From the IMG/VR virus record IMGVR_UViG_3300031873_001030: a DNA stretch of 64,000 bases; one strand, 5' to 3'. The position numbers were made by a program, and so were the translations under genes. This stretch comes from a virus (Duplodnaviria; Heunggongvirae; Uroviricota; Caudoviricetes). Below, one piece after another: positions 21,250 to 52,300 of the stretch; positions within the stretch are counted from its first letter, which is position 1, and each line of letters opens with the position of its first letter. Below the pieces are notes generated by a model. It made no database searches. It was given only the letters and a program-made list of their open reading frames with translations, and was not told where the DNA came from.

Positions 21250-21672
21250 AGACTATGTTTTGGATGTCGGTTGTGGAAAAGGAAATCTTGAAGTGATATT
21301 GGAAAGAAGGGGATTTGAAAATCTTTTTGCATTGGACAGTTCCAAAATGGCATTGGCAGAACTTAAATTGAGAACAAGAAAAAGCAAGACATCCAAAATC
21401 CTATGCAAGTCATAAAGGAATGCATGAGAGTTGGCAGACAAGCTATCATAGCCGTTCCTAATGGATTTTGGGTCGAACTGATACCTAAGAATTGGACTAT
21501 GCCAATTCCAAATTACTATGCACCTACAAAGAAATTGTTGAAATCTGCTGTGCATTGGTTGGGAGGAGAGATAATAGAATGGAATTATTACTATTCAGAT
21601 TTCAGATTCATAAGAAAATTCTTTCCAAGATGGTTCAGTACTAGCTTCATAGTAAGAGTAAAAAAACGATAA
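21237..21672 (+). pseudogene. SAM-dependent methyltransferase split by a frameshift inside an A5 tract (N-part 21237-21417, C-part open from 21367 to 21672)
   Basis: N-part has motif I VLDVGCGKG; C-part (different frame) has the post-motif-II region RVGRQAIIAVPNGFW; frames overlap around AAGAAAAAGCAAG at 21376-21388. Confidence 0.45.
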
Positions 21673-21728
21673 GTTTATATACTTTCACAAACAATATATA
21701 ATATGCTTCAGAGACATGAAGTTAACTA

Positions 21729-22961
21729 TTGGAGATGAAAGTGATGAACATAGGTGAAGTTGAAATTGGAAAACCTTGGCAATATAAGGAAAATTCTATT
21801 GGAATTGTTGTTCCACTTTTAAGGAAGAATCAAGTCAAAAGAAATTATAAGACAGTTGAGGAAGTTAAGGAGATGATGAATATCAAGGATACTGGAAATA
21901 TAGACAGTGTTGAAATTTCCTCAAAAGTCAATGAACCAGTTTTTATCAGGAGCGGGACGATGTTTGAAGGGGTTGGAACTCAGAGCAGGACGCCAACAAC
22001 TAGCATTGTCATAATTCCAAATCAACAGCCTATGAAAGTTCCTGTAAAATGCATACATGCTTCTCATCACATATCTTCTGGAAGCAACTTTAAAGTCGCA
22101 GGTAGTATTCCCCACTATATTGGTTATGCAGCTTTTGGACCAAGGGCTAGTCAATCTCGTGTGTGGTCTTCTGTAAGCATGCAAGCAAGTTCTGTAAGCC
22201 ATCATGCTATGCATCTTTCTGACAATCTTATCGATAACGTAAGAAAAATAGAAACTTTTAAGAAAGATATTGGCGAAGCAGTTAAAAACTATCCGATATT
22301 GAAAAATCAAGTTGGTATAGTTGTTCTTGATTTTAACGGGGTTGTTGGTCTTGAGATGTTTGATAATTCTGAATCTTGGGCAGCAGTATGTAAAGACATA
22401 ATCAATAAGTATTCTGACACAATAACACAGCTTGTTGACAGTCCTTTATTTTCATTGAATGAAGAAAGCATAAAACCAAAGATATTGGAATTCTTGAAGA
22501 AGCTGACAGAAGCAAAAGAAGAGATTATCTTTCAAGCAGATGTGATGAAAACAATCTTATTGGAAAATGGAGATATCATTGGAGAATGTACGAGTATTGA
22601 TGGCAGGATGATACATCTCATGGGAATGAAAAAGAAGGATGAGGAAAGGACATATGGTTCAGTTGCTCCAAATAATTTACCATTTACACCACAAAATTGG
22701 ACAACCAGAGGTTCTAACTATTCTGTGCTATCTGCACTTGGAGATGGAAGTAGGAGATTTTCAGAAATAGAGAAAACAACTAAATTATCCCCAGCTACAG
22801 TAAGCAAAAATTTAAGCAAGTTCCATTCTCTTGGATTTATTGACAAGTCAGCAGAAATAATAAACAACAAGGCCCGTGAAGTTTATAGCCTTACAAGCAA
22901 CGGTAAAAATGCATTTTTTACTATGCATGATGTCAGGAAGAAATTGATGAAGCTTGGATAA
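21729..22961 (+). CDS. putative transcriptional regulator (410 aa) with C-terminal winged helix-turn-helix
   Basis: C-terminal RRFSEIEKTTKLSPATVSKNLSKFHSLGFIDK resembles ArsR/MarR-type wHTH; N-terminal domain unrecognised. Confidence 0.4.
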   Translation: MEMKVMNIGEVEIGKPWQYKENSIGIVVPLLRKNQVKRNYKTVEEVKEMMNIKDTGNIDSVEISSKVNEPVFIRSGTMFEGVGTQSRTPTTSIVIIPNQQPMKVPVKCIHASHHISSGSNFKVAGSIPHYIGYAAFGPRASQSRVWSSVSMQASSVSHHAMHLSDNLIDNVRKIETFKKDIGEAVKNYPILKNQVGIVVLDFNGVVGLEMFDNSESWAAVCKDIINKYSDTITQLVDSPLFSLNEESIKPKILEFLKKLTEAKEEIIFQADVMKTILLENGDIIGECTSIDGRMIHLMGMKKKDEERTYGSVAPNNLPFTPQNWTTRGSNYSVLSALGDGSRRFSEIEKTTKLSPATVSKNLSKFHSLGFIDKSAEIINNKAREVYSLTSNGKNAFFTMHDVRKKLMKLG

Positions 22962-23109
22962 GCCTTAAATACTTTAACAGCCAATATTTTTTAGATATCA
23001 AATGAGAATCTACGATAATGTCACGATATAAGTTACACATTATGTGTAACCTCTCTATCTTTGCCTAGCAAGTGAAGACAGGGACATAAAAGAAAAAGAG
23101 GTAGATTCA

Positions 23110-23427
23110 ATGGTATTAATGTATAGGCAGGGAGACTTGCTTTTCAGAAAAGTAGAGAAGATTCCTTCTAATGCAGATGTCGTTAAAAATGGCGTTATTC
23201 TAAAAGGTGAAGCGACTGGACATGCTCACAAGCTTGTAGGCGGTACAGTATTTTCACAGTCAACTGGATTCATGGGAAATGGTCCAAGACAAATGTTCCT
23301 TCAAGTTGAAAAGAGCGGAAGAGTTGTTCATGAAGAACATAAAACAATTGAACTTGAAATTGGGTTCTACATCGTAATCCGTCAACGTGAATATAACCCA
23401 TACAGAATCTCATTAGTCGGGGATTAG
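23110..23427 (+). CDS. hypothetical protein (105 aa)
   Basis: ORF track; coupled to the next gene. Confidence 0.35.
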   Translation: MVLMYRQGDLLFRKVEKIPSNADVVKNGVILKGEATGHAHKLVGGTVFSQSTGFMGNGPRQMFLQVEKSGRVVHEEHKTIELEIGFYIVIRQREYNPYRISLVGD

Positions 23428-24054
23428 ATGATGGACGAATTCAAGAACACAATGAAAGGATTCTTTCACAGTTTTGATTATCTTCCTGAAGTGTTCAAGA
23501 CTCTTCATATCATAAGGCTAGTTCCAGGAAAGTTCGAGGTCAAGATGAAGCAGCCAATGATAATCCTTGGAAACCTGAGATTCCTGAATGAGACAAAACA
23601 TAGATGGCAGGAATACAATTTCGAAACTTTCTTCCTCAAAAAGAGAATTCCAGATTGCCAATGCAAAGAAGTCATGGATGCTGCAAAGGAATACATCCTA
23701 TTCAAAAGACTGCATGAGAACCAGAAAATCAGTGCAAGAGAAATAATGAATTGCAAAAATCTCGAATTGAGGAGAGCATTACTTGAAAGGTTTGGTTATG
23801 AGAAAATGTTGAATGAGCTTGGTGGACATATGATAGATGCAGAAGGAAATTACATTCTTTTCAAAATGGATTTCAGGGAAGTAAATGAATCTGTAAAATT
23901 AAATGAGGATGTAAAACTTTTGAAGATGAAGGATTCCTCAACAGAAAGATGGTATGTATTAAGGGTTCCTCCAAATGTAAAAAATTGCACTGAAGCTGTG
24001 TCATGGTCTTTCAATACGCCAGTTGAAGAATACAAATTAGAAGTGGAAACATAG
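23428..24054 (+). CDS. hypothetical protein (208 aa)
   Basis: ORF track; ends at the tRNA-like fragment. Confidence 0.4.
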   Translation: MMDEFKNTMKGFFHSFDYLPEVFKTLHIIRLVPGKFEVKMKQPMIILGNLRFLNETKHRWQEYNFETFFLKKRIPDCQCKEVMDAAKEYILFKRLHENQKISAREIMNCKNLELRRALLERFGYEKMLNELGGHMIDAEGNYILFKMDFREVNESVKLNEDVKLLKMKDSSTERWYVLRVPPNVKNCTEAVSWSFNTPVEEYKLEVET

Positions 24055-24479: not shown

Positions 24480-24601
24480 TGTCAAATTAGAAATGCAATA
24501 CGATTGTTAACAAGAAAGTTAACAAAGTCTCACCTGCCAGAATTGCACCAGCATCTACGAGGCTACAGCTCGTTGTTCTACTGTTGAACTAAGGCGAGTT
24601 G

Positions 24602-24674
24602 TGGGGATGCTGAGATTTGAACTCAGATTATTCGCTTCCAGAGCGAAGGTTCTAACAAGTTATACTACATCCCC
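24602..24674 (-). tRNA. tRNA-Pro (anticodon UGG); D-arm non-canonical by eye
   Basis: Minus-strand read GGGGATG...TTCGC-TCTGGAA-GCGAA...CTGAG-TTCAAAT-CTCAG-CATCCCC-A; acceptor, anticodon and T arms perfect. Confidence 0.6.
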
Positions 24675-24677
24675 AAG

Positions 24678-24751
24678 GGAGAATAGAGGGATTTGAACCC
24701 TCTCTAACAAGTTCACAGCTTGACGTGCTCGCCTACTACACCATATTCTCC
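24678..24751 (-). tRNA. tRNA-His (anticodon GUG) with genome-encoded G-1
   Basis: G-1:C73 pair; acceptor GAGAATA/TATTCTC; D-stem GTGT/GCAC; anticodon loop CTGTGAA; T-arm GAGGG-TTCAAAT-CCCTC; 3 nt from tRNA-Pro. Confidence 0.7.
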
Positions 24752-25212
24752 ATTTTATTATGTTCTTCTCTATGGCAATTTGCACATAGAAGTTTGCATT
24801 TCTGCAATTCTTTTCGTATCACCTCGAGACTATTATGCCATATTCTGGATATTTCATATTTCTTTTCTCCGTTCATATGATGAAATTCAAGTGCTGCGAA
24901 ACATTTGTTATATCCACATTTTTGACATTTACCTCCAAATTCCATTTTCATAATTTTTGTTTTTTCTTGGTTTTTACGCTTTTGTGCTATATACCACAAA
25001 TGTCTCTGAGGGAGAGATGATTTTTGTTTATGTTGTTTTATATATTTTCTCATATATTCTCTATGATATTTTTTCCTTTTTTCTCTGTTTTCAGGGTTTG
25101 ACAACCAAATTTTCCATCGTTCTTTTTCTTGCTCACGGTGTGATTTTCTATATAATCTATTTATTTCACACAATCGTTCTTTGTTTTTTTCATAATATTT
25201 TTTACTGGTCAT
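24736..25212 (-). CDS. HNH endonuclease (158 aa); final 5 codons overlap the 5' end of tRNA-His
   Basis: HNH core CQKCGY...LEFHHMNG...N...CANCHREEHN; basic K/R-rich N-terminus; stop TAG at 24736-24738 lies inside tRNA-His. Confidence 0.6.
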   Translation of the reverse strand: MTSKKYYEKNKERLCEINRLYRKSHREQEKERWKIWLSNPENREKRKKYHREYMRKYIKQHKQKSSLPQRHLWYIAQKRKNQEKTKIMKMEFGGKCQKCGYNKCFAALEFHHMNGEKKYEISRIWHNSLEVIRKELQKCKLLCANCHREEHNKMENMV

Positions 25213-25255
25213 ATAATGTAATTGTTTAATACCATTTATATTTGTTGTTGAACTA

Positions 25256-25330
25256 CGCTCTGGGCAAGACTCGAACTTGCAATTTCTCCGTTAACAGCGG
25301 AGCGCTTGTACCTGTTTAAGCTGCCAGAGC
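25256..25330 (-). tRNA. tRNA-Asn (anticodon GUU)
   Basis: GCTCTGG-CA-GCTT-AAACAGGTAC-AAGC-G-CTCCG-CTGTTAA-CGGAG-AAAT-GCAAG-TTCGAGT-CTTGC-CCAGAGC-G; all stems canonical. Confidence 0.75.
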
Positions 25331-25333
25331 AAG

Positions 25334-25437
25334 TACTCCCCGAATGATTCGAACATTCGTCTCTTGGTTTCTCCAAGTTTCAGATTCTTGTTGAAATTAT
25401 CAAAGCCAAGCATCTTTGTCCACTGGACGAGGGGAGT
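25334..25437 (-). tRNA. tRNA-Gln (anticodon UUG) with A1:U72 pair and a roughly 31-nt intron at position 37/38 (intron about 25368-25398)
   Basis: Acceptor ACTCCCC/GGGGAGT; T-arm GAATG-TTCGAAT-CATTC; anticodon stem CTTGG/CCAAG with loop CTTTGA|intron|A; D-arm fit only approximate. Confidence 0.45.
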
Positions 25438-25469
25438 ATATTGATTGTAGTTCTTTTTAAAAACTATGG

Positions 25470-25545
25470 ACACAAGCGGGAATCGAACTCGCATCTCTTT
25501 CTTGCAAGGGAAGTATCCTACCATTAAACGATTGGCCCGTCATTG
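25470..25545 (-). other. tRNA-like sequence with T-loop TTCGATT that I could not fold into a canonical cloverleaf
   Basis: GCGAG-TTCGATT-CCCGC followed by TTGTGTCCA; no matching 5' acceptor strand found nearby. Confidence 0.2.
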
Positions 25546-25713
25546 AAGAAAAAAGAACTAGCTCTATTGATTTGCCTTATGGGCGGGCTGTTGATTATAT
25601 GCTTCAATAGACATATTAGAAAATTTAGTCTTGATGATTGATTTGATTTTGTATTATGTGATATATAGAATGCAATATATATTTTAGAAGCATTATTTTC
25701 TAGATTTATCCCT

Positions 25714-26358
25714 CTAACGGGATTTATATTTTTCAGTCAATATCTTCTTGATTCTAGTTGAAAGTACGTCTCCTATTCCCTTTGCTTTCTGCAAGTCTTC
25801 CTCACTGGCTAAAAGTACTTTTTCAACAGAACCGAGATTTTCCAACAGCCTTTTGGATATTGTCGAATTTACTCCAGGAATGGAGGAGACTATCTGCTCT
25901 TGTATCTTTGACATTTCTGTCGGCACCTTTTCAAATTTGTATGATACAGTTCTTTTGCTTTCAACTTGCTCTTTTTTCGCAAGATGATATATCATTCTGG
26001 CAGTGTCCATTTTGTCCTTAGTATTTACTATGGAAATGTTGAATCTGATGATTAGACTTGCCATAGCGGCTTTCACAATGTTCACATCTATGCGTTCATT
26101 TGGAAATCCTTCTATGATTATGATGACAATCTTAAAATTGTCCTTCATCCTAGTTGTCTGTTCAAATAACCTTCCATCAAATATTGACGCTACAAAATCT
26201 TGATATGTCTTCCTTTCAATCACTGTCCTATCCGAAACTATGAAGTCTCCAACTTCCAAGAAAGATTCATTCAAGTTGACGTTGGCAAAATTTCTCAGAA
26301 AGTATATCAGCTCTTTTTCCCTGGAATCTGCTGATATCGTGATTTTAAATTCTTCCAT
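25714..26358 (-). CDS. xpf: short XPF/ERCC4-family nuclease with C-terminal (HhH)2
   Basis: GDFIVSDRTVIERKTYQDFVASIFDGRLFEQ (ERCC4 ERK motif); C-terminal IPGVNSTISKRLLENLGSVEKVLLASEEDLQKAKGIG helix-hairpin-helix pair. Confidence 0.6.
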   Translation of the reverse strand: MEEFKITISADSREKELIYFLRNFANVNLNESFLEVGDFIVSDRTVIERKTYQDFVASIFDGRLFEQTTRMKDNFKIVIIIIEGFPNERIDVNIVKAAMASLIIRFNISIVNTKDKMDTARMIYHLAKKEQVESKRTVSYKFEKVPTEMSKIQEQIVSSIPGVNSTISKRLLENLGSVEKVLLASEEDLQKAKGIGDVLSTRIKKILTEKYKSR

Positions 26359-26385
26359 AGTATTATCAGTAATTGCAAAAATATA

Positions 26386-26466
26386 TCTCCGAAATCGGGA
26401 AGGTTACAGATTCACTGGAAACCAGCGAAGCATTGTCGATGCTATGAAATCCTTCCCAGTAGGAGA
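26386..26466. ncRNA. candidate structured small RNA (Y-RNA-like?) upstream of the Ro60-like gene
   Basis: TCTCC-GAAATC-GGGAAGG...CCTTCCC-AGTA-GGAGA long terminal stem with internal loop; inner hairpins CAG-ATTCA-CTG and AGCAT-TGTCG-ATGCT; local GC well above background; strand undetermined. Confidence 0.3.
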
Positions 26467-26598
26467 TAAATTTATTTGTGCAGATAATCTTAAATACTTT
26501 AACAACCGATATAATTGTATCTCTCATACAGCTATGGGATTCATAATACAACAACAGGATGTAGTACAGTTTCCGTAGCGATTTTGGAGGGTACATTT

Positions 26599-26859
26599 AT
26601 GGATACCATCACGCTATATATACTTAGAACAAAGCCAGAGACACATTTCTATGTTGGAATTACTAAAGACCTTGATAAGAGATTAGAACAGCATAAAAAT
26701 AATCCAAATGTCTCTTGGGTAAAAAGAAGAAACTTTAAATTTGATTTAGTATGGAGAGAGAAATTTCCTGATTTGAAATCTGCAAGGAAAAAGGAGAAAT
26801 ATTATAAGAAAATGGAAAGGAAAAGACTCTTAAAAATCATTGGGATAAAAGGAGTGTGA
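26599..26859 (+). CDS. small GIY-YIG nuclease-domain protein (paralog 1; track ORF starts at 26515, likely true start at 26599)
   Basis: FYVGITKDLDKRLEQH...KKEKYYKKMERKRLLKII; GGAGGG 6 nt upstream of 26599; paralog at 35982. Confidence 0.55.
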   Translation: MDTITLYILRTKPETHFYVGITKDLDKRLEQHKNNPNVSWVKRRNFKFDLVWREKFPDLKSARKKEKYYKKMERKRLLKIIGIKGV

Positions 26860-26863
26860 TGGT

Positions 26864-28279
26864 ATGGAACTAAACAAAGGTTCAAAAAGAACGAGAAAAG
26901 TAATTAATCCTGAAGGTTCTATAGTATTGAAACGTTCAGATGAAATCCAGCTATATCTTGAAGCAAGCAATCTCAACATAAAGGAAGATAAGTTCTATCA
27001 GAGTGCTAAGGACAAGCTGGCAAGCTTGATAAAGATGGCTAGGGAAGCCAATCAGGCATACGTCTTTGGTCTTGGAAGATTCTTAACTGACAACGGATTG
27101 AAACTTTCTCCAGTTGTGTTATATTCAGTACTGTCTGACAGACATGTTCCAATTAATGCAAGTGCAATAAAGACATTCAACACTCCTCAAAGAATAGCAG
27201 AAGCTGTATCATTGCAGAATCTTAAGATAGTTAAATTGAACAACCAATTCAAGAAAAAGATTCTTAAGAAAGCCTTGGAAAACATGTCAGAATTTACTTT
27301 GAGAAAGAACAAGATGCTTAAGAGAAAAGTCAAGGAAAAGGACTTGATTAAACTTTTGAGGCCTAAGCCAGCAAATGCAGAAATGGCAAAGCTATACAAG
27401 GCAATTATAGAAGATGACAAGCTTTCAAAGATGAAGGAGACTGAAACATTTGTAAGAGTGAAGTCTTCAAAAGAAATGAACACTAAAGATAAGCTTGATT
27501 ATTTGACAAATAACGTAGACAGGCTTCCAATAAATGAATTGATAAGAAATCTTAAGTTCATCTCTGAAAATGCAGACTTCAGGAAAGACTTTGAATTGAA
27601 GAGCAAAGTGATAGCAAAATTGCAGAATATAAAGGACATGAGGTTCTTGAACGTTTTTGATTTGATAACCACTGTGGTTTATGTTCCAGACTTCAGCAAG
27701 GCACTGTCAGAAGTTGTAAAGAAATTTTGCGATGATGTTAAAGCTAAGTTTGACTACAATGAAAGTGCAACTGTATTATTTGACTTGTCTGGAAGTATGG
27801 AAGGGGAGGGAATAGAAAAAGGTTTTAAGTACTTGGTACTGTTTGCAAATATATTTGGCAATTTGAAATTGAGATGCTTTAGTGAAGAATTGCTTAAGGA
27901 CACTTACCAGAATGTCATCACTGACATAAATAAAGGAAATTACAAGATTGCATTGAACAAGCTTGACACTATCGGTGGAACTGCATTGCTTGATTCTTTG
28001 GACAAACTTATAGATGAGGGAAAGACTGAATCTAATATAATCATTATAAGCGATGAAGTGAGCTGGCTTGAAGGAGATGACTTGAGTGTGAGAATAAAGG
28101 AAATTTCAGACAAGCTTAAGGGAAAGAAAGTGATACTGGTAAATCCTGTAGTTTATAAGGGAACAGTATTCAGGGACAATATAATTGCATTTGCAAGCCT
28201 TACCTCAAATGTCATTTACAATCTGATGATAGGAACAAAGCCAGAAGCATTTGTAAAGATGATAAAAGAATATAAGTGA
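26864..28279 (+). CDS. rsr: Ro60/TROVE + vWA protein (Rsr-like)
   Basis: C-terminal vWA with MIDAS DLSGSM...GGTALLDSL; N-terminal segments IKEDKFYQSAKDKLASLIKMA and LPINELIRNLKFISENA parallel the Ro60 TROVE segments [21 protein letters not shown] and PLTALLRNLGKMTANS (recalled from memory). Confidence 0.55.
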   Translation: MELNKGSKRTRKVINPEGSIVLKRSDEIQLYLEASNLNIKEDKFYQSAKDKLASLIKMAREANQAYVFGLGRFLTDNGLKLSPVVLYSVLSDRHVPINASAIKTFNTPQRIAEAVSLQNLKIVKLNNQFKKKILKKALENMSEFTLRKNKMLKRKVKEKDLIKLLRPKPANAEMAKLYKAIIEDDKLSKMKETETFVRVKSSKEMNTKDKLDYLTNNVDRLPINELIRNLKFISENADFRKDFELKSKVIAKLQNIKDMRFLNVFDLITTVVYVPDFSKALSEVVKKFCDDVKAKFDYNESATVLFDLSGSMEGEGIEKGFKYLVLFANIFGNLKLRCFSEELLKDTYQNVITDINKGNYKIALNKLDTIGGTALLDSLDKLIDEGKTESNIIIISDEVSWLEGDDLSVRIKEISDKLKGKKVILVNPVVYKGTVFRDNIIAFASLTSNVIYNLMIGTKPEAFVKMIKEYK

Positions 28280-30241: not shown

Positions 30242-31066
30242 ATGGCTAAACTTACTGCTACTGTAAATGATGTTGTCATGTTCAAGTCTCTTTTTGGTCT
30301 GTTGTGCAGGAATTCTGATATGCTAAAATTTAAAGTCGATAAGGAAGGTATAAGTTCTGTTACTATGCCTGCGGATATGGCGACTTTTCTTAGTGTTTTG
30401 ATAAAGCCAAATTTCTTTGAGGAATGGAATTTTGAAGGTTCGTTCATGTATTGCTATTTTGACCCGCAGCAATTTTCTCGGATGATGAAGAATCTTACCT
30501 CGAAGAAGATTGAGATGGTGCTTGATGAGAATTATATAAATTTCAGTCTTGAGAACGAGGGAAGAAAGAAACATATCTCATTGGTACAGATTACTGGAGA
30601 ATTGTCAGAGCTTCCTGGGAATTTGGGAACTGATTTTGATTTTTCATGGATTATTGAGATAGAGACTTTGAAAAGCATTGTGGATGATATTGTCAATGTC
30701 GATGACAATGCGGATTTGTCTTCCATCTATTTCACATGGGAAAAAGACAGTCTGAAAGTTGAAGCAAGGGAGAGTAAGGTCATGAAGTTTGAGACTATTA
30801 TTGGCCCACCTTTTGTGAAATGTGGTAGCGGGCATTCTTCTTTTAGGACCAATTATTTTTCAAAGATAGTCTGGGCTGGTCTTGGTAAGATTAGATTTTC
30901 AATCTTGAATACTGACGGTCCAGCTTTTATGGAGACTTGTGATGATAGCAAGTTCTCATTGAAATTTATTGTGGCGCCTTTTGTGGCAAGTAATCCTGAT
31001 ATGGATATCACGTCCGAGAATGACGGTAAAAGTTCACAAGATAGTGAGGTGGTAAGTGATGGGTAA
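30242..31066 (+). CDS. PCNA-like sliding-clamp candidate (274 aa)
   Basis: N-terminal pattern VNDVVMFKSLFGLLCRNSDMLKFKVDKEGISSVTMPADMATFLSVL...FEGSF...NLTSKKIEMVLDEN parallels PCNA domain-1 topology; weak and by eye only. Confidence 0.3.
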   Translation: MAKLTATVNDVVMFKSLFGLLCRNSDMLKFKVDKEGISSVTMPADMATFLSVLIKPNFFEEWNFEGSFMYCYFDPQQFSRMMKNLTSKKIEMVLDENYINFSLENEGRKKHISLVQITGELSELPGNLGTDFDFSWIIEIETLKSIVDDIVNVDDNADLSSIYFTWEKDSLKVEARESKVMKFETIIGPPFVKCGSGHSSFRTNYFSKIVWAGLGKIRFSILNTDGPAFMETCDDSKFSLKFIVAPFVASNPDMDITSENDGKSSQDSEVVSDG

Positions 31067-44138: not shown

Positions 44139-47100
44139 TTGCCCAATTTGGAGGGTTTTGTAATGGCAAATAGTATTTTTGGTCAGCCTCAGCCAAATCC
44201 ATTTTCACCAGGCACGACATTGCCGTCATCAAATGTAAGTGTGACGCCAAGTATGCCCATTGGTGGATTGACTGTAGGATTAGGAGGAAGTGGAAATGTT
44301 TATTATGGAGGAGCGCCTGCTGGAGGAGTTGGTCAGACTACAACAACAACTGGAGGTCCTGCGATTTATATTCCTCCACAGGAGACTGCAAAAGCAGCAG
44401 AAAAAACAATAACTCCTGCTTTGATTCCTGAAATAAAACCGCCAACTTTAAAAGTTGGTGTCGGCGGATTGGTAGAAGGTTTGGGAAAATCTGGTAATGT
44501 ATATGAAGGTGGTGTGCTTGTTGGAGGTACTACTCCATGGGGTCCTGTAGTTAAGGAAGGTGGTGTCAGTTATGTCCCAACTGGAAGGACAGCTGAAACT
44601 GGAGAGACAATTTATTCTGGAACTCAGATAAGTTCTGCAACACCTATTGGAACTTTTGTGCCTGCAAAGAGAATTGAAATAACTCCACTGATGCCAGAGA
44701 TTAGTGTACAACCAGCTACAGCTGGTGCTATAGGTCTTTCATTTCCTGCAGGTGTTTTGTCTGTAAAATCTGGTCCAGTTGATGTGAGCAAACTTTCTCC
44801 AGATGTGCAGACTGCGTTGGGAAATCTTCAAGGAAAGGTGCAGGCTGAATATCCAGGATTCAAGCTTGCAAGTTGGACTCGTGAAGGTGATGAGCTGAAA
44901 GGTGTTTTGGAACCTGTGAAGTATGTCTCACTTGGAACTGATGTTACGAAAGCGACTGCTGCCATAAAGGATTTGGGATTGAAAGAAGGTGATTATAAAT
45001 TATATACTGGAATTGGTGGGGATTATCAGCTTGTGACTGATAAGGTGTCAAGCCAGAAATACGTGAGTGGTCTTCTTTCCAGTTATTCAGTTATTCCTAT
45101 AACTGGGTATGGACAGTATAGAGGGTCTGATGAGAGGATTGCATTGAAGTTTCTTGATAAGGAAGGTTATATCAAAGATGGTGTGATAAGCAAAGATGTT
45201 CAAGTGATAGGGGATATAGGAGTAGGAGGAACTGGTGCGATGATAGTTTTAAAGGGAAGTACAAAGAGTTCTGAAGATTTGTCAAAGACTTATTTTTCTT
45301 CCTTGACTGAAGTGCAGAAGGAAGATACTGCGATGGCAAGAGGAGAGTTGCAGATTGCTCAGGAAAAGGAACTTTTGAGACAACCTGGTATGAGTGTTGA
45401 AAAGGGAGCTGCTTGGTGGAATTTGAATGTTGGTCCTTATATGCTTTCTCCAAAGGACCCTCTTGGTCTGAGGAGTGCTTACATAGGAGTTGAAGGTTTG
45501 GTAAAAGGAACTCCTGTCAGTGTCATACAAAAGGACATAGAAGCTAGCAGGCTTTCTGCAGAACAGGAATTTCTTCAGAGAAAATATATGGGAGAGTCTT
45601 GGACTAAATCATTATGGGAAGCTCCTGCAACGCAGCCTTTGAAAGTTGCTGCTACTTGGTATGGCGGTGGTCTTTTGTTGGGAGGTGCTGCTGGAGTTCT
45701 TAAAACTGCTGAAGTAGGTGCTGGTATAGTATCAAAAGCTCCATGGCTTGCAACTACAGGAAGAGTTATTTCAACTGCTGGAAAAGTTGCGACAAGTGTT
45801 CCAGGACAAGTTGTAATTGGTTCAGGATTGTATGGTTTTACTGAAAGAGGAAATATAATGGCACTTGCAAAAGGAGGTGTTCCAAGAGACATTGTTCCTG
45901 GAATGATTTTTGACGCATCACAATTTGGATTTGCATATGGCGGTGCAGCTGCAGGTTTTCCAGTTGGTTATTCTAGAGGTGCTGGATTGGGTTATGCTTT
46001 CAAGCCTGGTGCATTGCCTCCATCTGAAACATTCGTGGCAGAAATCAGAGGGACTGGAGTATCTGGAATTCCAGGTGAATTGCAAGGATTGAAACTTGGG
46101 ACAAGGGTTGCTGGAGAAGTTCCAAAGGGTTTTGTTCCAAAAGGATTTAGTGAAGGTGTTCCTTATAGGGCGTTCTTGCAGGAGGGTGTGACAGTTACAA
46201 GAGCTGGAGAAGTTGTACCTTCTGGGACTTTGATGCCAACTATTGCAGAAATGGAACCTGCAAAACCTTTGATGCAGAGGATTGCCACTGCAATGACAAA
46301 GCCAAGCGAATTGATTCCTAAGATGCTTCCTGGAGGACCTACTGTTGAAGCTCCTTTTCTTGAATCAATCAGATATGGTGAAGAAAAGATAGCGAAAGGA
46401 GGAACTAAGGATATTTATGCTGCAGGTTATCAGCCAGGAACTACAATATGGTCAAGATTGAAGATGCCTGTTGAAGGAGCGCAGTATGGGATTGCTGAAG
46501 GTTTTAAGACTGTTACAGCTGAGAGTCCTCTTGCTTCGTTGACAGAAAAATACACTACAAGGATGGCATTGAGAGCTACTGGCGCTCCTATTGAAGCGGG
46601 AGATGTTGTTCCAGTGAAAATAATGGCAAAGACAGATTTTATTGTAAATGATGAAGGGATAGCTGCGATGTTGAAATCTGGAAAGAATCTTGCAGATATT
46701 GAAAAATTGAAAGGTGCTGATATAATACAGCGTGATATTGAATTTGCAGATAAGCCTGCTGTAAGGTACACTAGATTTATTGATAAGGAAACTGGAAAAT
46801 CTTTGGTTGTGTTGAAGCAGACTGCAGCTCCTACAATAGAGGAAGTTGTTGCTTTGGCAGAGGAAGGAAAGACTTTGATAAAACCTGAATATGTTGGAGG
46901 AAAGGTTGCAGGCTATAGTATAAGAGGTACTGAAATAGTTGGAGAGGGGAAAGAATTTGCAGGAGGAGTGCGTTATAAAAAGGGTGTTGAAGTAGTTGGT
47001 AAGGAACAAGTGACAGGAATAGCTCTTGATGATAAGACATTTAACGCATTGATGGATAAATATGGAAACAAGATATTGAGGGTTTCATCTCCGACAACTG

Positions 47101-48161
47101 CAAGAGATATAGCAGCTCTTGAGGCAAGTGCTGAAGGCGGTGTCACAAGAGGGACAAGCGAGCTTTCTGTCATCAGATACGTCTCAAGGGGACAATTTGA
47201 AGATTATCTGAAATCAAGAACTGGAGTAAGTAGTGTGAAGGGTGGTGAATATCCTCCTACTGAAGCTGGAACTTTTGGAACTGTTTCAATTGAAAGGCCT
47301 GAAGTTCCTAGACTTCCTAAGGTACCAGAAGAAAAAATAGTTCCACCTGAAGCTGGAGTTTCAAAAGGAGGTCTTATGTCTGAAGGCGAGAGAGTGATGT
47401 CAATTGCTCTTTCAGAAGAAGTTGGAAGACCAGCAGTCGGATTGGAAGAACGTCCTTTGAGATTCACTGAAAAGTATTTTGGGATGCAAACTCCATCCTT
47501 TGGAGTGACATCTGTTGAAGGTGCAGGGATAATAAGTTCTGACATAGCCATTGCTACAAAGTCTGCTGTTGGAATGCGTGAACAATTAGTTGCAGCTCCA
47601 GAGATTAGTGTTAGAACTATGTTGAAACCATCTGCAATTATGACTAGTGTAAATATTGAGGATGTGTTGCTTAAGATTTCTGAAAGTATTTTAGGCAAGT
47701 TGCAGCCAAGGATAAGTACTGATATCACTGATGTAGGAATGAGGATTGAACCGATAACTTCTCCTATTGTTACAACTAAGGTTACAACTGCTGTTGATAT
47801 AACACCTATACCTATGAATTTGATAGCTCCTATTACAACTTTTAAAGGACCAATTGTGACTGTCAGACCTCCAATAATACCTCCTGGTGGTGGGGGCGGT
47901 GGTGGAGAAGGTAAAAAACCTGAAAGAGAATATTTTGGATATTTCGGTCGTAAAAAAGCAGGAAAGAGAATTTTAAGTTCTGATTTGTTTTCTGTTGCTG
48001 TGTCTCAGGCTGCGTATGGAAAAGCCACTACTCCAAAGTTTAGTAGGAAAGAAGTTTCTGAACTTGAGAGCAGAGGTTTGATAAGAGTTCCTACAGCTGA
48101 GATATCTGGAATCCCAAGTTCTGGAGAATTATTGAAAAGATTGTTAGGAGGTAGAAAATGA
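44139..48161 (+). CDS. large Gly/Val/Thr/Pro-rich protein (1340 aa), structural or surface-associated
   Basis: Recurrent GGSGNVYYGG / GKSGNVYEGG glycine-rich repeats; C-terminal PPIIPPGGGGGGGEGKK; no TM; first gene of a coupled operon. Confidence 0.5.
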   Translation: MPNLEGFVMANSIFGQPQPNPFSPGTTLPSSNVSVTPSMPIGGLTVGLGGSGNVYYGGAPAGGVGQTTTTTGGPAIYIPPQETAKAAEKTITPALIPEIKPPTLKVGVGGLVEGLGKSGNVYEGGVLVGGTTPWGPVVKEGGVSYVPTGRTAETGETIYSGTQISSATPIGTFVPAKRIEITPLMPEISVQPATAGAIGLSFPAGVLSVKSGPVDVSKLSPDVQTALGNLQGKVQAEYPGFKLASWTREGDELKGVLEPVKYVSLGTDVTKATAAIKDLGLKEGDYKLYTGIGGDYQLVTDKVSSQKYVSGLLSSYSVIPITGYGQYRGSDERIALKFLDKEGYIKDGVISKDVQVIGDIGVGGTGAMIVLKGSTKSSEDLSKTYFSSLTEVQKEDTAMARGELQIAQEKELLRQPGMSVEKGAAWWNLNVGPYMLSPKDPLGLRSAYIGVEGLVKGTPVSVIQKDIEASRLSAEQEFLQRKYMGESWTKSLWEAPATQPLKVAATWYGGGLLLGGAAGVLKTAEVGAGIVSKAPWLATTGRVISTAGKVATSVPGQVVIGSGLYGFTERGNIMALAKGGVPRDIVPGMIFDASQFGFAYGGAAAGFPVGYSRGAGLGYAFKPGALPPSETFVAEIRGTGVSGIPGELQGLKLGTRVAGEVPKGFVPKGFSEGVPYRAFLQEGVTVTRAGEVVPSGTLMPTIAEMEPAKPLMQRIATAMTKPSELIPKMLPGGPTVEAPFLESIRYGEEKIAKGGTKDIYAAGYQPGTTIWSRLKMPVEGAQYGIAEGFKTVTAESPLASLTEKYTTRMALRATGAPIEAGDVVPVKIMAKTDFIVNDEGIAAMLKSGKNLADIEKLKGADIIQRDIEFADKPAVRYTRFIDKETGKSLVVLKQTAAPTIEEVVALAEEGKTLIKPEYVGGKVAGYSIRGTEIVGEGKEFAGGVRYKKGVEVVGKEQVTGIALDDKTFNALMDKYGNKILRVSSPTTARDIAALEASAEGGVTRGTSELSVIRYVSRGQFEDYLKSRTGVSSVKGGEYPPTEAGTFGTVSIERPEVPRLPKVPEEKIVPPEAGVSKGGLMSEGERVMSIALSEEVGRPAVGLEERPLRFTEKYFGMQTPSFGVTSVEGAGIISSDIAIATKSAVGMREQLVAAPEISVRTMLKPSAIMTSVNIEDVLLKISESILGKLQPRISTDITDVGMRIEPITSPIVTTKVTTAVDITPIPMNLIAPITTFKGPIVTVRPPIIPPGGGGGGGEGKKPEREYFGYFGRKKAGKRILSSDLFSVAVSQAAYGKATTPKFSRKEVSELESRGLIRVPTAEISGIPSSGELLKRLLGGRK

Positions 48162-49388: not shown

Positions 49389-52300
49389 ATGCATTGGAAA
49401 CATTTACTTACTCATAAGTCTCTTTTTCTGGAGGGGATTCGAATCAGTATAAGATTGTCAAAGGCAACTGTAAAGATTACAAGCTTGATATTCGCATTGG
49501 CTCTGATTGGAACTTTTGGCTATCTTTTTATCTCCAATGTCAGCAACAAAGTGAGTGGAGATTCTTATAATGACATAAATATGAGTGATATAGTCAATAA
49601 TACTATAGTGACAGCATCTAGTTATTCGAATTATGAATATGAGGTGACTAAAAATGTATACAAGACTTATTTCCAAGACAATATCAATTCAGGTGAAGCT
49701 GTAAGGTTTGAGAAGGATGGATATTATTTCATATATGATTTGAGTGGTGGAAAGATTCAGTGGGCAGAACAAGATGGAAACCCTACGAAGACAAAGTCCA
49801 TAGGAGCAATATTATCTTCTCCGATAAGTCTTGCTGGTGATAAAGTTTATTACAATGATGCTTTTGCATATACAAATGTGAGTTATCTTATCTTGAATGA
49901 CATGCTCAAAGAGAATTTCATATTGTCATCATCGTTGCCGATAGATGACACATACTTGTATTTGGAATATACTGGTGAGATAAAGCATTCGGATAGTCTG
50001 ATGATTTATGCAAATGATAAGAATCAGACTGAAAAGAATTTTGTAACTCAAGGTAAGATAGAATTCAAGGATGTAAATGGAACTACGATATTTTTCTTAC
50101 CAGCACCTACAGTAACTGATTCGAATGGAAAGTCGGAATATGGTTTTTATGATATAAAAATTTCCAGTGGAAAGATTGCATTCAATCTTAGAGTGAACAG
50201 CACTTTCTTGAAAAATGCCGCTTACCCAGTGTATATAGACCCAACTATTAGAACTTTCAATGATACATTATCATCAAAAAACTTGACATTTATATGGAAT
50301 CAGAATCAGACACTTTATATATCAATACCAAAAAATGCTATAGTTACAAATGCTTACTTGAATTTGAGTGGATTCCCGGCACAGAATAATGTAAATTTCT
50401 TTGACCCCTTAGACAATGGAAATTATATTAGTTCAACCAATGCTATAGTAAGTGGCGGGCAAATAACATTAAATCGTCAAAACAATACAGGGGAAAGTTT
50501 TACTTCACCTCCCTGCAGTGAAATACAATATATAGGCGGTACCGTACCAGGTACTTATGCAACTGCACAATCCTTTAGAGCATCGGGTGTGTATCTTTCA
50601 TATATTAAAGTCAAGTTCTTCAATCAAGTCACCGCAACATTATCAATAAGGTCGAGTTTAGCTGGAGCCAATCTTGTTTCTACAAGTGTTGCAAGCGGAG
50701 ATGAGAGATATTATGAATGGTATATCACAAACCCACCAGCGCTCACTGTTGGTAATACTTACTACATAGTTCTTACATGGAGTTCTGACGGAAGCAATTA
50801 TGGAGGCTTGAGACAGGCTTGCTACAATTATTTGTATCCGAACGGAACTTATTATGCTTACTTGTTAAGTTCCTGGAACACTGAACCGAATGGGGCTTAC
50901 TATGACCATGCTTTTGAAACAAAATACTGGGAGTATGATACAAGCAATTATGTTAATTCAGTTGCAATAGACACCACATCATATTATTTGAATGCAACCT
51001 TAACAAAATCAGATAACATACCAGCAGGAACATCAATAACTTATTATTTAAGTTCAAATGGTGGCGCGTCTTGGGAACAAGTCACCTCAGGCATAAATCA
51101 TACATTCTCTAATATCGGGCAAGATATCAGATGGAGAGGAGTATTGACAACAAATTCTGATAGGTCATCAACACCAACACTTTATAACATGACTGTGAAT
51201 GCATCTCAAGGGTATTGGCCAATGAATCCTTATCTTGATATTTCTGGGGATGGAGACGTGGAATGGAATTATACAGGAACATTTAATCAATCAAACAATA
51301 GGACAGCAAACTTATCCTCTGAAATAAACACATATTTGTCGACTTGTACACCAACAAGTGGGAATTGCACAATGCCATTAGTATTCCATTCAGATACAGC
51401 AGGAATAATTCAGGTTTCAGATATCAACATAACATATAATGTGCCTTTTATATCGGTTTGGAATACTTCAAAGGCAGGAACTAGCAACTCTACACAGATT
51501 GAATTGCCTTTATACAATGGAGGCACTTATGCATTTACAGTGGACTGGGGTGATGGAACAACAGATTACATCACTTCATATCTGAATGATAACCACACTT
51601 ATGCGACAGCAGGGGTTTACGTTGTGAACATAGCTGGGACTATAAATGGATTCAGGTTCAACAATGGTGGCGACAGATTAAAGATTATCAACATCACACA
51701 ATGGGGAGACTTGAATGTAGGAAATTCTGGTAATTATTTTCACGGTTGTGCTAATTTGAATAGCAATGCCACTGATAACTTGAATTTGGCAGGAACTACG
51801 GATTTGTCTAATATGTTTTATTCAGCTACTTCCTTCAATGGAAGTATTTCAGGCTGGGATACAAGTGGTGTCACTTCCATGTATACTATGTTCTATGGCG
51901 CTTCTAATTTTAATTCGAATATTTCAAGCTGGAATACAGGAAATGTAATCAATATGGAATATATGTTTTATACCGCTTCTTCCTTTAATCAGAATATTTC
52001 AAACTGGAATACAGGAAAAGTCACTAGTATGTTAAGTATGTTTCATGGTGCCACTTCTTTCAATCAGAACATAAGCAATTGGGATGTCAGTAAAGTCACT
52101 ACTATGTCTGATATGTTTCATAGTGCTACTTCCTTCAATGGAAATATTTCAGGCTGGAATGTAGTCAATGTCACTACTATGTATGATATGTTCCATAGTG
52201 CCACTTCTTTCAATCAGAGTATGAGTAGTTGGAATACAGGAAATGTTGCTACTATGTTTTCCATGTTTTATGGTGCTACTGCTTTCAATGGCAATATTTC

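What the first reader, a model, noticed from the sequence alone, without database searches (positions are those of the whole stretch)
25714..28279. Ro60/TROVE-vWA (Rsr-like) protein with an adjacent candidate Y-like structured RNA, flanked by XPF and GIY-YIG nucleases
The 471-aa protein has a C-terminal vWA domain with a MIDAS motif (DLSGSM ... GGTALLDSL). Its N-terminal segments (IKEDKFYQSAKDKLASLIKMA; LPINELIRNLKFISENA) line up with the corresponding Ro60 TROVE segments as I recall the human Ro60 sequence. Ro60/Rsr orthologs are almost always encoded next to one or more Y RNAs, and they are uncommon in archaea. About 400 bp upstream there is a GC-rich, ORF-free 81-nt sequence (26386-26466) that folds into a long stem formed by its two ends (TCTCC/GGAGA and GGGAAGG/CCTTCCC, separated by an asymmetric internal loop) with internal hairpins. 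This is the general Y-RNA architecture, and the 5' arm includes UCCGAAA, reminiscent of the GGUCCGA Ro-binding element. The neighbours are a short XPF nuclease (divergent) and a coupled GIY-YIG nuclease. Together they could form an RNA/DNA surveillance or repair module on a mobile element.
Basis: partly seen in the sequence, partly recalled or inferred. Interest (0 to 1): 0.75.

Follow-up and report, generated by a model that had tools for sequence, protein, structure and literature searches.

The report
Ro60 protein with new Y-like RNAs
A probable archaeal virus or mobile element encodes a divergent relative of the RNA-quality-control protein Ro60, and just upstream lie two copies of a structured small RNA from a family not found in Rfam or the papers searched; in related elements this RNA forms tandem arrays in front of the Ro60 gene, and some copies mimic tRNA.

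Summary
The protein call is right. The 471-aa ORF (26864-28279, +) gets no Pfam TROVE or vWA hit. A profile of 51 homologues matches the solved Ro60 of Thermus phage phiLo at E 1.8e-27. An AlphaFold model (pLDDT 85.7) has Ro60 structures as its 12 best PDB matches. The MIDAS residues are invariant.

The RNA call is right in place and shape, but the strand is wrong and it is incomplete. The hairpin at 26386-26466 belongs to a conserved RNA family and reads on the minus strand (26384-26471). A second copy lies at 26517-26592 (+). A core covariance model trained only on other loci scores them 43.8 and 45.6 bits (E about 1e-6).

Across 21 loci, 50 copies lie 3-1544 nt upstream of the Ro60 gene, 49 on its strand, in arrays of one to five. 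Of 500 aligned pair cells, 99.4% pair and 129 carry compensatory changes, against 24 in shuffles. Longer relatives carry a T-arm, capped acceptor-like hairpin and D-arm, as in bacterial YrlA. The canonical GNCGAA motif is absent, and Rfam does not detect the family above threshold.

The XPF and GIY-YIG genes are real but are not conserved neighbours. Verdict: a new variant of the Ro60/Y-RNA system. Binding and expression are untested.

The parts
26864..28279 (+). Ro60-like protein (TROVE HEAT-repeat ring plus C-terminal vWA domain with an intact MIDAS motif), 471 aa
   Evidence: phmmer against PDB hits phiLo phiRo60 (9kop/9l5y) at 3.1e-6. A profile of 51 homologues hits it at 1.8e-27 over residues 16-464. 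The AF2 model has pLDDT 85.7 and pTM 0.83. The top 12 Foldseek PDB hits are all Ro60 structures, TM 0.55-0.70. D307, S309, S311, T373 and D397 are invariant. There is no Pfam, NCBIfam or PHROGs family hit.
26384..26471 (-). Y-like RNA module A, short form. Terminal helix AUCUCC/GGAGAU, internal loop (5' UACU, 3' CGAUUUC), helix GGGAAGG/CCUUCCC, apical UUUCAUA, and two small hairpins.
   Evidence: R2 (core model trained on 10 non-window modules) gives 43.8 bits, E 2.7e-6 in 231 kb. R1 gives 24.3 bits on minus against 8.4 on plus. The MFE fold reproduces the family structure at -32.0 kcal/mol, z -4.5. The aligned motifs are shown.
26517..26592 (+). Y-like RNA module B, short form. Terminal helix CUCUC/GGAGG, loop AUACA / GAUUUUG, helix GCUAUGGGA/UUUCCGUAGC, apical UUCAUA. 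Its 3' GGAGG lies 9 nt before the GIY-YIG start codon at 26599.
   Evidence: R2 gives 45.6 bits, E 1.1e-6. R1 gives 19.3 bits. The MFE fold reproduces the family structure at -19.8 kcal/mol, z -2.9, and the reverse strand folds poorly at z -1.3.
26489..26507 (+). Promoter-like motif CTTAAATACTTTAACAACC with a TATA-like core, midway between the two divergent RNA modules and about 25 nt from each inferred 5' end
   Evidence: There are two matches in the window within 3 mismatches (22964 and 26489) against 0.03 expected. A related copy lies near 21668. The promoter function and bidirectional use are inferred, not shown.
26599..26859 (+). Stand-alone GIY-YIG nuclease domain (86 aa), sitting exactly between module B and the Ro60 start codon; probably a mobile insertion
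   Evidence: Pfam PF01541 at 2.8e-14. It is absent from all related loci. In 12 of 21 loci the last module ends 3-25 nt before the Ro60 start codon.
25714..26358 (-). Short archaeal-type XPF (ERCC4 nuclease plus HhH2), 214 aa, transcribed away from Ro60 and preceded by module A
   Evidence: Pfam ERCC4 at 3.2e-26. The best PDB match is Aeropyrum pernix XPF 2bhn at 6.9e-33. The only virus homologues are in viruses of Methanobacteriales. It is not conserved next to Ro60.
24527..25538 (-). tRNA gene cluster (Tyr, Pro, His, Asn and one degenerate tRNA-like gene at 25468-25538) with an HNH endonuclease gene (24736-25212) inside it
   Evidence: ARAGORN tRNAs and Rfam. The HNH gene hits PHROGs at 3.9e-22. 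tRNA clusters also flank Ro60 in L002, L004, L005/L019, L028 and L029.

Best explanation
The locus is a Ro60/Y-RNA system of a divergent clade known only from metagenomes, carried on what is most likely an archaeal virus or extrachromosomal element.

Shown here:
- The 471-aa protein has the Ro60 architecture, an alpha-helical TROVE ring closed by a vWA domain with an intact MIDAS site.
- The 240-nt spacer upstream holds two divergently oriented copies of a conserved, covarying RNA module.
- Each module has a short terminal helix, usually CUC/GAG. Next comes a conserved asymmetric internal loop, 5' AUA(C/A)A opposite 3' G(A)UUUYG. Then there is a 7-bp helix of free sequence, followed by an invariant UWCAUA and a variable apical part.
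- In relatives, one to five such modules stand head to tail directly upstream of the Ro60 gene on its strand.
- One module per array often carries a tRNA-like T-arm, a tetraloop-capped acceptor-like hairpin and a D-arm, as in bacterial YrlA.

Inferred:
- The modules are transcribed from a shared TATA-like promoter region. Module B leads the GIY-YIG and Ro60 genes. Module A leads XPF and probably the tRNA cluster.
- They are released as stable RNAs of about 70-90 nt.
- The Ro60 ring binds them through the conserved loop-helix module, using a basic patch. Six of the eight phiRo60 RNA-contact positions are K or R in this family.
- As with known Ro60/Y RNPs, the RNA would gate or tether Ro60 for surveillance of misfolded or damaged small RNAs. 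The element's own tRNAs are the obvious clients.
- Because the 3' strand of the last module ends in GGAG 3-25 nt before the next start codon, the module may also mask that ribosome-binding site. That would give Ro60 feedback on its own operon.
For: Protein:
- The family profile hits phiRo60 at E 1.8e-27 over the full length.
- Foldseek's top 12 PDB hits are all Ro60 structures. MIDAS residues are invariant.
- Basic residues align with phiRo60 K141, K142, R163, R169, R173 and R178. This comes from the alignment mapped to PMC12135203 numbering with an offset of 8 that I inferred.

RNA:
- A conserved element of about 130 nt upstream of Ro60 was found by all-against-all blastn and aligned.
- RNAalifold finds the long stem, T-arm and D-arm with compensatory pairs.
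- The acceptor-like hairpin covaries and is capped by GAAA, GCAA, UUCG or CUCG tetraloops in seven of the nine long variants (AUAA and UAUU in the other two).
- Model R1 finds many shorter variants plus both window copies.
- Model R2 was trained without window sequences. It gives 50 hits at E<1e-3 in 211 kb, all 3-1544 nt upstream of Ro60 and 49 of 50 on its strand.
- Held-out loci L033 and L034 carry arrays in the gene-free gap before Ro60.
- Covariation: 99.4% of 500 cells pair against 69.5% shuffled; there are 129 double-sided changes against 23.9; slid controls give 39-57%. A4 shows the same pattern.
- An alignment-free test gives a perfect 7-bp helix in 67% of own 5'/3' arm pairs against 6% of cross pairs.

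Context:
- tRNA clusters flank Ro60 in several loci, and an RNA ligase lies next to it in L030.
Against: - There is no expression or binding data of any kind.
- The canonical Ro-binding motif (GNCGAAN0-1G on the 5' strand, or GGUCCGA) is absent.
- Rfam YrlA reaches only 25.1 bits against a gathering score of 69, and only on the tRNA-like core of one relative. Nothing hits in the window.
- Neither window copy has the tRNA-like domain.
- Module A is the only copy of 50 on the strand opposite Ro60.
- The 3' GGAG looks like a Shine-Dalgarno sequence and often sits at RBS distance from a start codon, so part of the conservation could reflect translation signals.
- The loci were collected through the Ro60 protein, so exclusivity to Ro60 neighbourhoods is tested only within about 5-10 kb flanks and the 64-kb window.
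- The covariation alignments were fitted to the models.
Confidence: 0.7

Rival explanations
1. The modules are cis-acting mRNA leader elements, not free Y RNAs. The terminal helix sequesters the GGAG ribosome-binding site of the next gene, and a protein (possibly Ro60), a ligand or temperature opens or closes it.
For: In 12 of 21 loci the last module ends 3-25 nt before the Ro60 start codon. In the window, module B's GGAGG is 9 nt before the GIY-YIG ATG. Other modules directly precede small ORFs, for example in L003, L005, L006 and L013.
Against: Modules stand head to tail in arrays with no ORF between them, for example L018 1830-1932/1933-2059, L013 3864-3965/3967-4086 and L025 1071-1383. GGAG is conserved in those internal copies too. 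Terminal-helix variants such as GUC/GAC, CUA/UAG and CUGA/UCAG keep the pairing but destroy the SD. A tRNA-mimic domain has no obvious role in an RBS switch. The two readings are not mutually exclusive.
Confidence: 0.17
2. The modules are degenerate or permuted tRNA-derived sequences, or a mobile repeat spreading within tRNA-rich regions, with no link to Ro60 function.
For: Long variants contain a tRNA-like T-arm and D-arm. One sits between two tRNA-Arg genes in L005. tRNA clusters are common near these genes.
Against: No copy occurs elsewhere in the 64-kb window or in the flanks. Copies in one array differ in helix sequence but keep pairing and loop motifs, which indicates selection on structure. 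The acceptor-like hairpin is closed by stable tetraloops in most long variants, not by a processing site. Most copies, including both in the window, lack any tRNA-like part.
Confidence: 0.05
3. One reading: Ro60, the RNA, XPF and GIY-YIG form one RNA/DNA surveillance or repair module.
For: The genes are adjacent in this window. Module A precedes XPF and module B precedes GIY-YIG. Asgard 'Nidhogg' viruses are reported to carry both Ro60 and XPF-like genes (bioRxiv 10.1101/2021.07.29.454249).
Against: tblastn finds XPF and GIY-YIG in none of 28 related Ro60 loci. Neighbours in other long contigs are PolB and nucleotide-metabolism genes with an RNA ligase, a helicase, or ORFans. The GIY-YIG ORF occupies the spot where relatives have the module abutting the Ro60 gene, which fits a selfish insertion.
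Confidence: 0.04
4. The 81-nt hairpin is a chance palindrome or a bidirectional terminator between divergent genes.
For: It is an inverted repeat that folds on both strands.
Against: The flanking genes diverge, so there is nothing to terminate. The terminator scan places no site there. Loop and apical motifs match a family model built from other loci at E about 1e-6.
Confidence: 0.02

Closest known systems
phiRo60 with Yrl1/Yrl2 of Thermus phage phiLo (PDB 9KOP, 9L5Y; PMC12135203)
   Same: It is the closest solved relative of the protein (profile E 1.8e-27, TM about 0.65). Both are virus-encoded, with a TROVE ring plus vWA. Both have two small stem-bulge-stem RNAs encoded just upstream of the gene, and the basic RNA-contact patch is largely conserved.
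   Different: Identity is only about 18% in the structural alignment. The phiLo RNAs were picked by a CGAA motif in the bulge, whereas here the conserved loop is AUA(C/A)A opposite G(A)UUUYG, plus an apical UWCAUA. The host is probably archaeal, not Thermus. Relatives have arrays of up to five copies, some with tRNA-like domains.
Bacterial and mycobacteriophage Rsr with YrlA/YrlB (Rfam RF02553; PMC4201824)
   Same: The RNAs lie within 4 kb of Ro60 on the same strand, often upstream and several per locus. A long stem is formed by the two ends. Long variants have the same T-arm, acceptor-like stem-loop and D-arm order, with tRNA-like T-loop (UUCGAUU) and D-loop (AAUGGUA) sequences. Shorter partners without the full tRNA mimic resemble YrlB.
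   Different: There is no GNCGAAN0-1G motif. Rfam YrlA scores 25 bits against a gathering score of 69. The conserved recognition elements lie on both strands of the stem and in the apical loop. The head-to-tail arrays are dense, and the 3' end doubles as an SD-like GGAG.
Deinococcus radiodurans Rsr-Yrn1-PNPase (RYPER) and metazoan Ro60-Y RNA
   Same: The ring protein fold is shared (TM 0.55-0.70 to 2nvo, 1yvp and 9nep), as is the general Y RNA plan of a terminal stem, internal loop and variable loop.
   Different: The bulged GGUCCGA helix is absent. No PNPase partner is known for archaea, where an exosome or another nuclease would have to take that role. There is no Rfam Y_RNA hit.
TROVE-domain genes in archaeal tRNA gene clusters, Borgs and Asgard 'Nidhogg' viruses (PMC6333295, PMC11208441, bioRxiv 10.1101/2021.07.29.454249)
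   Same: These are Ro60-type genes on archaeal mobile elements next to tRNA clusters, homing endonucleases, XPF-like nucleases and RNA ligases.
   Different: In the passages I read, those reports annotate only the protein and describe no partner RNA. Sequence relatedness of those proteins to this clade was not tested here.

Membership tests
Ro60 / Rsr (TROVE plus vWA) protein family | Ring of alpha-helical HEAT-like repeats closed by a C-terminal vWA domain | tested here: met
   The AF2 model has pLDDT 85.7. Foldseek's top 12 PDB hits are all Ro60 structures at full length, E 5e-12 to 2e-9, TM 0.55-0.70.
Ro60 / Rsr (TROVE plus vWA) protein family | Sequence-profile match to the TROVE family | tested here: inconclusive
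   Pfam PF05731 gives no hit at E<=1, and no vWA family hits either. The profile of 51 homologues matches the PDB chain deposited as 'TROVE domain-containing protein' (phiRo60) at 1.8e-27 over residues 16-464. D. radiodurans Rsr matches only at 0.28, on the vWA part.
Ro60 / Rsr (TROVE plus vWA) protein family | MIDAS motif DxSxS...T...D in the vWA domain | tested here: met
   D307, S309, S311, T373 and D397 are invariant in 51 sequences.
Ro60 / Rsr (TROVE plus vWA) protein family | Binds Y RNA or misfolded RNA through a basic outer surface and the central hole | not testable with these tools
   Indirect only. Six of the eight phiRo60 contact residues (PMC12135203) align with K or R in the family consensus (with my own numbering offset).
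YrlA-type bacterial/phage Y RNA (Rfam RF02553; PMC4201824) | Encoded within about 4 kb of the Ro60 gene on the same strand | tested here: met
   49 of 50 family members meet this, at 3-1544 nt upstream. In the window module B meets it and module A is on the opposite strand.
YrlA-type bacterial/phage Y RNA (Rfam RF02553; PMC4201824) | GNCGAAN0-1G motif near the 5' end (the presumed Ro60 contact) | tested here: not met
   The consensus 5' strand is AUA-CUC-AUA(C/A)A-helix. The only CGA lies on the 3' strand, as YGAUUUYGG.
YrlA-type bacterial/phage Y RNA (Rfam RF02553; PMC4201824) | tRNA-like domain in the order T-arm, acceptor-like stem-loop, D-arm | tested here: inconclusive
   This is met, with covariation, in long variants of relatives: L005, L012, L014, L016, L017, L018, L022, L023, L025 and L033. 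It is absent from both window copies.
YrlA-type bacterial/phage Y RNA (Rfam RF02553; PMC4201824) | Reaches the Rfam gathering score | tested here: not met
   The best score is 25.1 bits against 69, on L022 1193-1249. There is no hit in the window at E<=10.
Y RNA in the broad sense | An RNA of 80-130 nt whose ends form a long stem interrupted by a conserved internal loop, with a large variable loop | tested here: met
   The structure is supported by 129 compensatory cells and 99.4% pairing. The window copies span about 70-88 nt and the long forms about 125-150 nt.
Y RNA in the broad sense | Expressed as a stable small RNA and bound by Ro60 | not testable with these tools
   No transcript or binding data are available.
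Metazoan Y RNA (Rfam RF00019) | Bulged helix with GGUCCGA / UUGACU-type strands | tested here: not met
   There is no Rfam hit, and the motif is absent from the consensus.
Proposed Ro60-XPF-GIY-YIG module | Conserved co-occurrence of the three genes | tested here: not met
   tblastn finds XPF and GIY-YIG only in L001, which is the same sequence as the window. Neighbours differ.

The most novel reading that the evidence does not exclude
These modules are the first Y RNAs recognised for archaeal viruses or elements. They form a new class with its own Ro60-recognition code: AUA(C/A)A opposite G(A)UUUYG, plus UWCAUA. They are organised as processed head-to-tail arrays, sometimes embedded in viral tRNA arrays. 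The last unit also masks the ribosome-binding site of the Ro60 operon, so the RNP both polices viral tRNAs and small RNAs and feeds back on its own synthesis.
Probability: 0.3. Interest if true: 0.75.

Novelty: new variant of a known kind. Interest (0 to 1): 0.62.

Why it matters
Ro60/Y RNPs are well studied in animals and a few bacteria. For archaea and their viruses I found only protein annotations, in three literature searches and Rfam 15.

Here a clade of about 100 metagenomic Ro60 homologues that Pfam cannot see is paired with an RNA family whose structure has strong comparative support. This gives three things:
- A ready covariance model for annotating such loci.
- A natural series of RNAs, from short forms to partial (T-arm only) and full tRNA mimics, for asking which part of a Y RNA binds Ro60 and which part recruits effectors.
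- A different recognition motif, which tests how Ro60-RNA specificity evolves.

The link to virus-encoded tRNA clusters and RNA ligases also bears on how viruses protect or police tRNAs during infection.

Tried and rejected
- Pfam, NCBIfam and PHROGs on the 471-aa protein returned only noise (CotO 0.02, PyrR 0.03, phrog_35267 0.0045).
- Rfam on the whole window (gathering) and on 24-29 kb at E<=10 gave only tRNAs and noise. Rfam on 20 loci gave tRNAs and one tmRNA.
- blastn of the 240-nt spacer against all loci found no homologue, only a promoter-like repeat. Sequence search alone would have rejected the RNA.
- A protein-pattern scan of GTDB genomes found no relative. IMG/VR gave one distant locus, L002. 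tblastn of Ro60 against 50,697 phage records found no match.
- Three RNA-motif scans of IMG/VR gave 0 hits. One GTDB hit in Cyclobacterium (L032) was not confirmed by R2 and has no Ro60, so it is chance.
I used a smaller alignment, A5, instead.
- The regex anchors in the alignment-free test failed or mis-fired on about 10 of 32 sequences. The result stands but understates the pairing.
- PolB of L030 against virus records was uninformative: 22-24% identity to T4-like phages and haloviruses.
- The tRNA-Met A1:U72 check in L005 and L023 was not decisive for the domain of life.
- I considered a kink-turn reading of the internal loop. By inspection the GA comes directly after the helix, not after a 3-nt bulge.
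- I considered permuted tRNA genes. The acceptor-like hairpin is tetraloop-capped in most long variants, and most copies lack tRNA parts.
- The sigma-70 promoter scan gave no more hits than shuffles.


Full report
**Observation**

ORF 26864-28279 (+) encodes 471 aa and carries the quoted peptides. XPF/ERCC4 with HhH lies at 25714-26358 (-). A GIY-YIG domain starts at the ATG at 26599 and ends 4 nt before the Ro60 start codon. The 81-nt stretch 26386-26466 folds into the described two-helix stem with inner hairpins: -26.4 kcal/mol, z -3.2, and 0 of 200 shuffles fold as well. Four tRNA genes, a fifth degenerate tRNA-like gene and an HNH gene lie just beyond XPF on the minus strand.

**The protein**

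Pfam, NCBIfam and PHROGs give no meaningful hit; neither TROVE nor vWA is detected. Against PDB sequences the protein alone hits one molecule, the Ro60 homologue of Thermus phage phiLo (9KOP/9L5Y), at 3.1e-6.

The large protein database returned 97 homologues. All come from metagenome or read-archive assemblies, none carries an informative name, and only one carries a Pfam domain (PF05762). A profile of 51 of them matches phiRo60 at 1.8e-27 over residues 16-464.

An AlphaFold2 model built on that alignment has pLDDT 85.7 and pTM 0.83. Its 12 best Foldseek matches in the PDB are all Ro60 structures: phiLo, Xenopus, the newer 9ne/9nf Ro60 entries and D. radiodurans. They match over the full length with TM 0.55-0.70.

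The MIDAS residues D307, S309, S311, T373 and D397 are invariant. I mapped the phiRo60 mutagenesis data (PMC12135203) onto the alignment, using a chain-numbering offset of 8 that I inferred. Six of the eight RNA-contact residues correspond to K or R in this family. The protein is therefore a Ro60-type protein of a divergent clade.

**The RNA**

blastn of the 240-nt spacer found nothing in 28 related loci. An all-against-all comparison of the regions upstream of the Ro60 homologues did find something. It revealed a conserved element of about 130 nt in at least nine loci.

Its middle reads as GGGUUCGAUUCCC, then a short hairpin of free sequence, then GUGU-AAUGGUA-GCAC:
- The first part is a 5-bp stem with a canonical T-loop.
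- The hairpin is capped by a GAAA, GCAA, UUCG or CUCG tetraloop in seven of the nine sequences (AUAA and UAUU in the other two).
- The last part is a D-arm with A14, G18, G19 and A21.

This is the order T-arm, acceptor-like stem-loop, D-arm that defines bacterial YrlA (PMC4201824). The two ends form a long interrupted stem. The T-loop and D-loop fix the strand as that of the Ro60 gene.

A covariance model of this element (R1) recovered the nine training sequences at 130-152 bits. It also found many shorter relatives upstream of Ro60 in other loci. In the window it found two hits: 26381-26488 on the minus strand (24.3 bits, against 8.4 bits for the plus strand there) and 26508-26595 on the plus strand (19.3 bits).

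I then built a core model (R2) from ten short modules, none from the window:
- In 231 kb it scored the window copies at 45.6 bits (26517-26592 +, E 1.1e-6) and 43.8 bits (26384-26471 -, E 2.7e-6). There was no other window hit at E<1.
- Over 21 loci, 50 hits reached E<1e-3. All lie 3-1544 nt upstream of the Ro60 start and 49 are on its strand. They form arrays of one to five that often abut head to tail.
- Two loci fetched afterwards by protein identity, L033 and L034, carry arrays in the gene-free gap before Ro60. L033 includes a full tRNA-like form at 138 bits.

**Structure support**

- On the 50-sequence alignment, 99.4% of 500 pair cells are standard pairs, against 69.5% in shuffles and 39-57% when partners are slid.
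- All ten pairs show double-sided changes. There are 129 such cells against 23.9 expected, and the covariation score is 0.79 against 0.18.
- The 32-sequence alignment of the full model gives the same picture for the T-arm, D-arm and a 3-bp anticodon-stem-like helix.
- These alignments are model-fitted, so I also ran an alignment-free test. The 10 nt after the 5' motif and the 10 nt before the 3' motif contain a perfect 7-bp helix in 67% of modules. When arms from different modules are combined the figure is 6%.

The consensus is AUA-[CUC]-A-UA(C/A)A-[7 bp]-A(U)-U(U/A)CAUA ... [7 bp]-G(A)UUU(U/C)G-[GAG]-AA. The bases U.CAUA are invariant in 50 of 50 copies. Terminal-helix variants GUC/GAC, UCC/GGA, CUA/UAG and CUGA/UCAG keep the pairing. 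The single-sequence MFE folds of both window copies reproduce this structure.

**Comparison with known Y RNAs**

The architecture, the position next to Ro60 and the tRNA mimic in long forms match YrlA/YrlB. The hallmark GNCGAAN0-1G near the 5' end is absent, and so is the metazoan GGUCCGA helix. Rfam's YrlA model reaches only 25.1 bits, against a gathering score of 69, on the tRNA-like core of one relative. It finds nothing in the window. Both window copies are short forms without a T-arm or D-arm.

I therefore do not file them as YrlA members. They work like Y RNAs and belong to a distinct family. I found no description of it in Rfam 15 or in the literature searches.

**Context**

XPF and GIY-YIG are not conserved neighbours. 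Other contigs show different genes beside Ro60:
- L030: PolB, thymidylate synthase, dUTPase, thymidylate kinase and an RNA ligase 0.8 kb downstream.
- The other long contigs: a DEAD/ResIII-type helicase, a Prim-Pol, or many small ORFans.

tRNA clusters flank Ro60 in L004, L005 (22 tRNAs), L028, L029 and L002. This echoes published TROVE/tRNA-cluster links in archaea (PMC6333295) and phages.

Several results point to an archaeal virus or extrachromosomal element, though none proves it:
- The XPF is the short Aeropyrum type (2bhn, 6.9e-33).
- Its only homologues among 50,697 virus records are in viruses of Methanobacteriales.
- A weak PCNA-like gene lies 4 kb away.
- A TATA-like motif recurs before genes.

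No capsid or terminase gene was identified among the window ORFs I scanned.

In the window, the block from the tRNAs to module A is on the minus strand, while nearly everything else is on the plus strand. This suggests an inversion with a breakpoint between the two modules. The GIY-YIG ORF sits exactly where relatives have the last module abutting the Ro60 start, which suggests a selfish insertion.

**Mechanism**

Shown: a Ro60-fold protein, and a covarying RNA family strictly co-located with it.

Inferred:
- The modules are transcribed from the central promoter-like region and processed to small RNAs.
- Ro60 binds them through the conserved loop-helix module.
- The RNP acts in surveillance of structured small RNAs, plausibly the element's tRNAs. 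The tRNA-like forms in relatives could recruit tRNA-handling enzymes or a nuclease.

In 12 of 21 loci the last module's GGAG lies 3-25 nt before the next start codon, so RBS masking or autoregulation is a live possibility. It is also the main rival reading, in which the modules are purely cis-acting leaders. ORF-free head-to-tail arrays and SD-destroying compensatory variants argue that the modules are more than ribosome-binding sites.

**Verdict**

This is a new variant of a known kind of system. Interest is moderate to high for RNA biologists, and it depends on expression and binding experiments.

Noticed in passing
window 25468-25538 (-): A tRNA-like gene found by Rfam (37.5 bits) but not by ARAGORN. 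It reads as tRNA-Ala(UGC)-like, with mismatches in the acceptor, anticodon and T stems, so it may be a decaying or non-canonical tRNA.
   Followed up: partly
window 24527-26471: The tRNAs, HNH gene, XPF and Y-like module A are all on the minus strand, while almost all other genes in the window are on the plus strand. GC skew dips here. This looks like an inverted block with one breakpoint between the two RNA modules. The HNH ORF overlaps tRNA-His by 15 nt.
   Followed up: no
window 22964-22982 and 26489-26507 (related copy near 21668-21698): The motif CTTAAATACTTTAACARCC, with a TATA-like core, recurs upstream of genes or RNAs: 2 matches against 0.03 expected. It is possibly an archaeal-type promoter of this element.
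   Followed up: partly
window 30242-31066 (+): A 274-aa protein with weak similarity to crenarchaeal PCNA subunits (E 0.003-0.008), 4 kb from the short XPF. Characterised short crenarchaeal XPF enzymes depend on PCNA (from my own knowledge).
   Followed up: partly
L030 12233-12784 (also L031 6113-6664): An RNA ligase (PF09414) lies 0.8 kb downstream of the Ro60 homologue on a 60-kb groundwater contig. The contig also carries PolB, ThyA, dUTPase and Tmk. This recalls the bacterial rsr-yrlBA-rtcBA repair operon.
   Followed up: no
L005 3320-3460: The long tRNA-like Y variant sits between two tRNA-Arg genes inside a 12-tRNA array. In all, 22 tRNA genes flank the Ro60 gene in this locus.
   Followed up: partly
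L028 1433-1686 and 112-2439: A distant Ro60 homologue (27% identity) lies directly downstream of 10 tRNA genes and a tmRNA gene. That suggests a bacterial-virus branch of the same theme. Models R1 and R2 give no convincing hit there.
   Followed up: no
A3 alignment (L012, L014, L016, L017, L018, L022, L025): There may be covariation of the tRNA Levitt pair in the long variants. The D-loop second base and the base before the T-stem are A/U in five sequences and U/A in two (L014, L017). L005 and L023 do not fit.
   Followed up: no
window 49389-60647 (+) and 44139-48161 (+): A 3752-aa ORF is made of DUF285/BspA-like repeats (Pfam 2.8e-138). A 1340-aa ORF has no family hit. They sit beside a run of glycosyltransferase and methyltransferase genes.
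   Followed up: no
window 21729-24054 (+): An ARPP-1 domain protein fused to a winged-helix domain (PF20208, 2.8e-25) and a DUF6745 protein lie upstream of the tRNA block. Their function is unknown.
   Followed up: no
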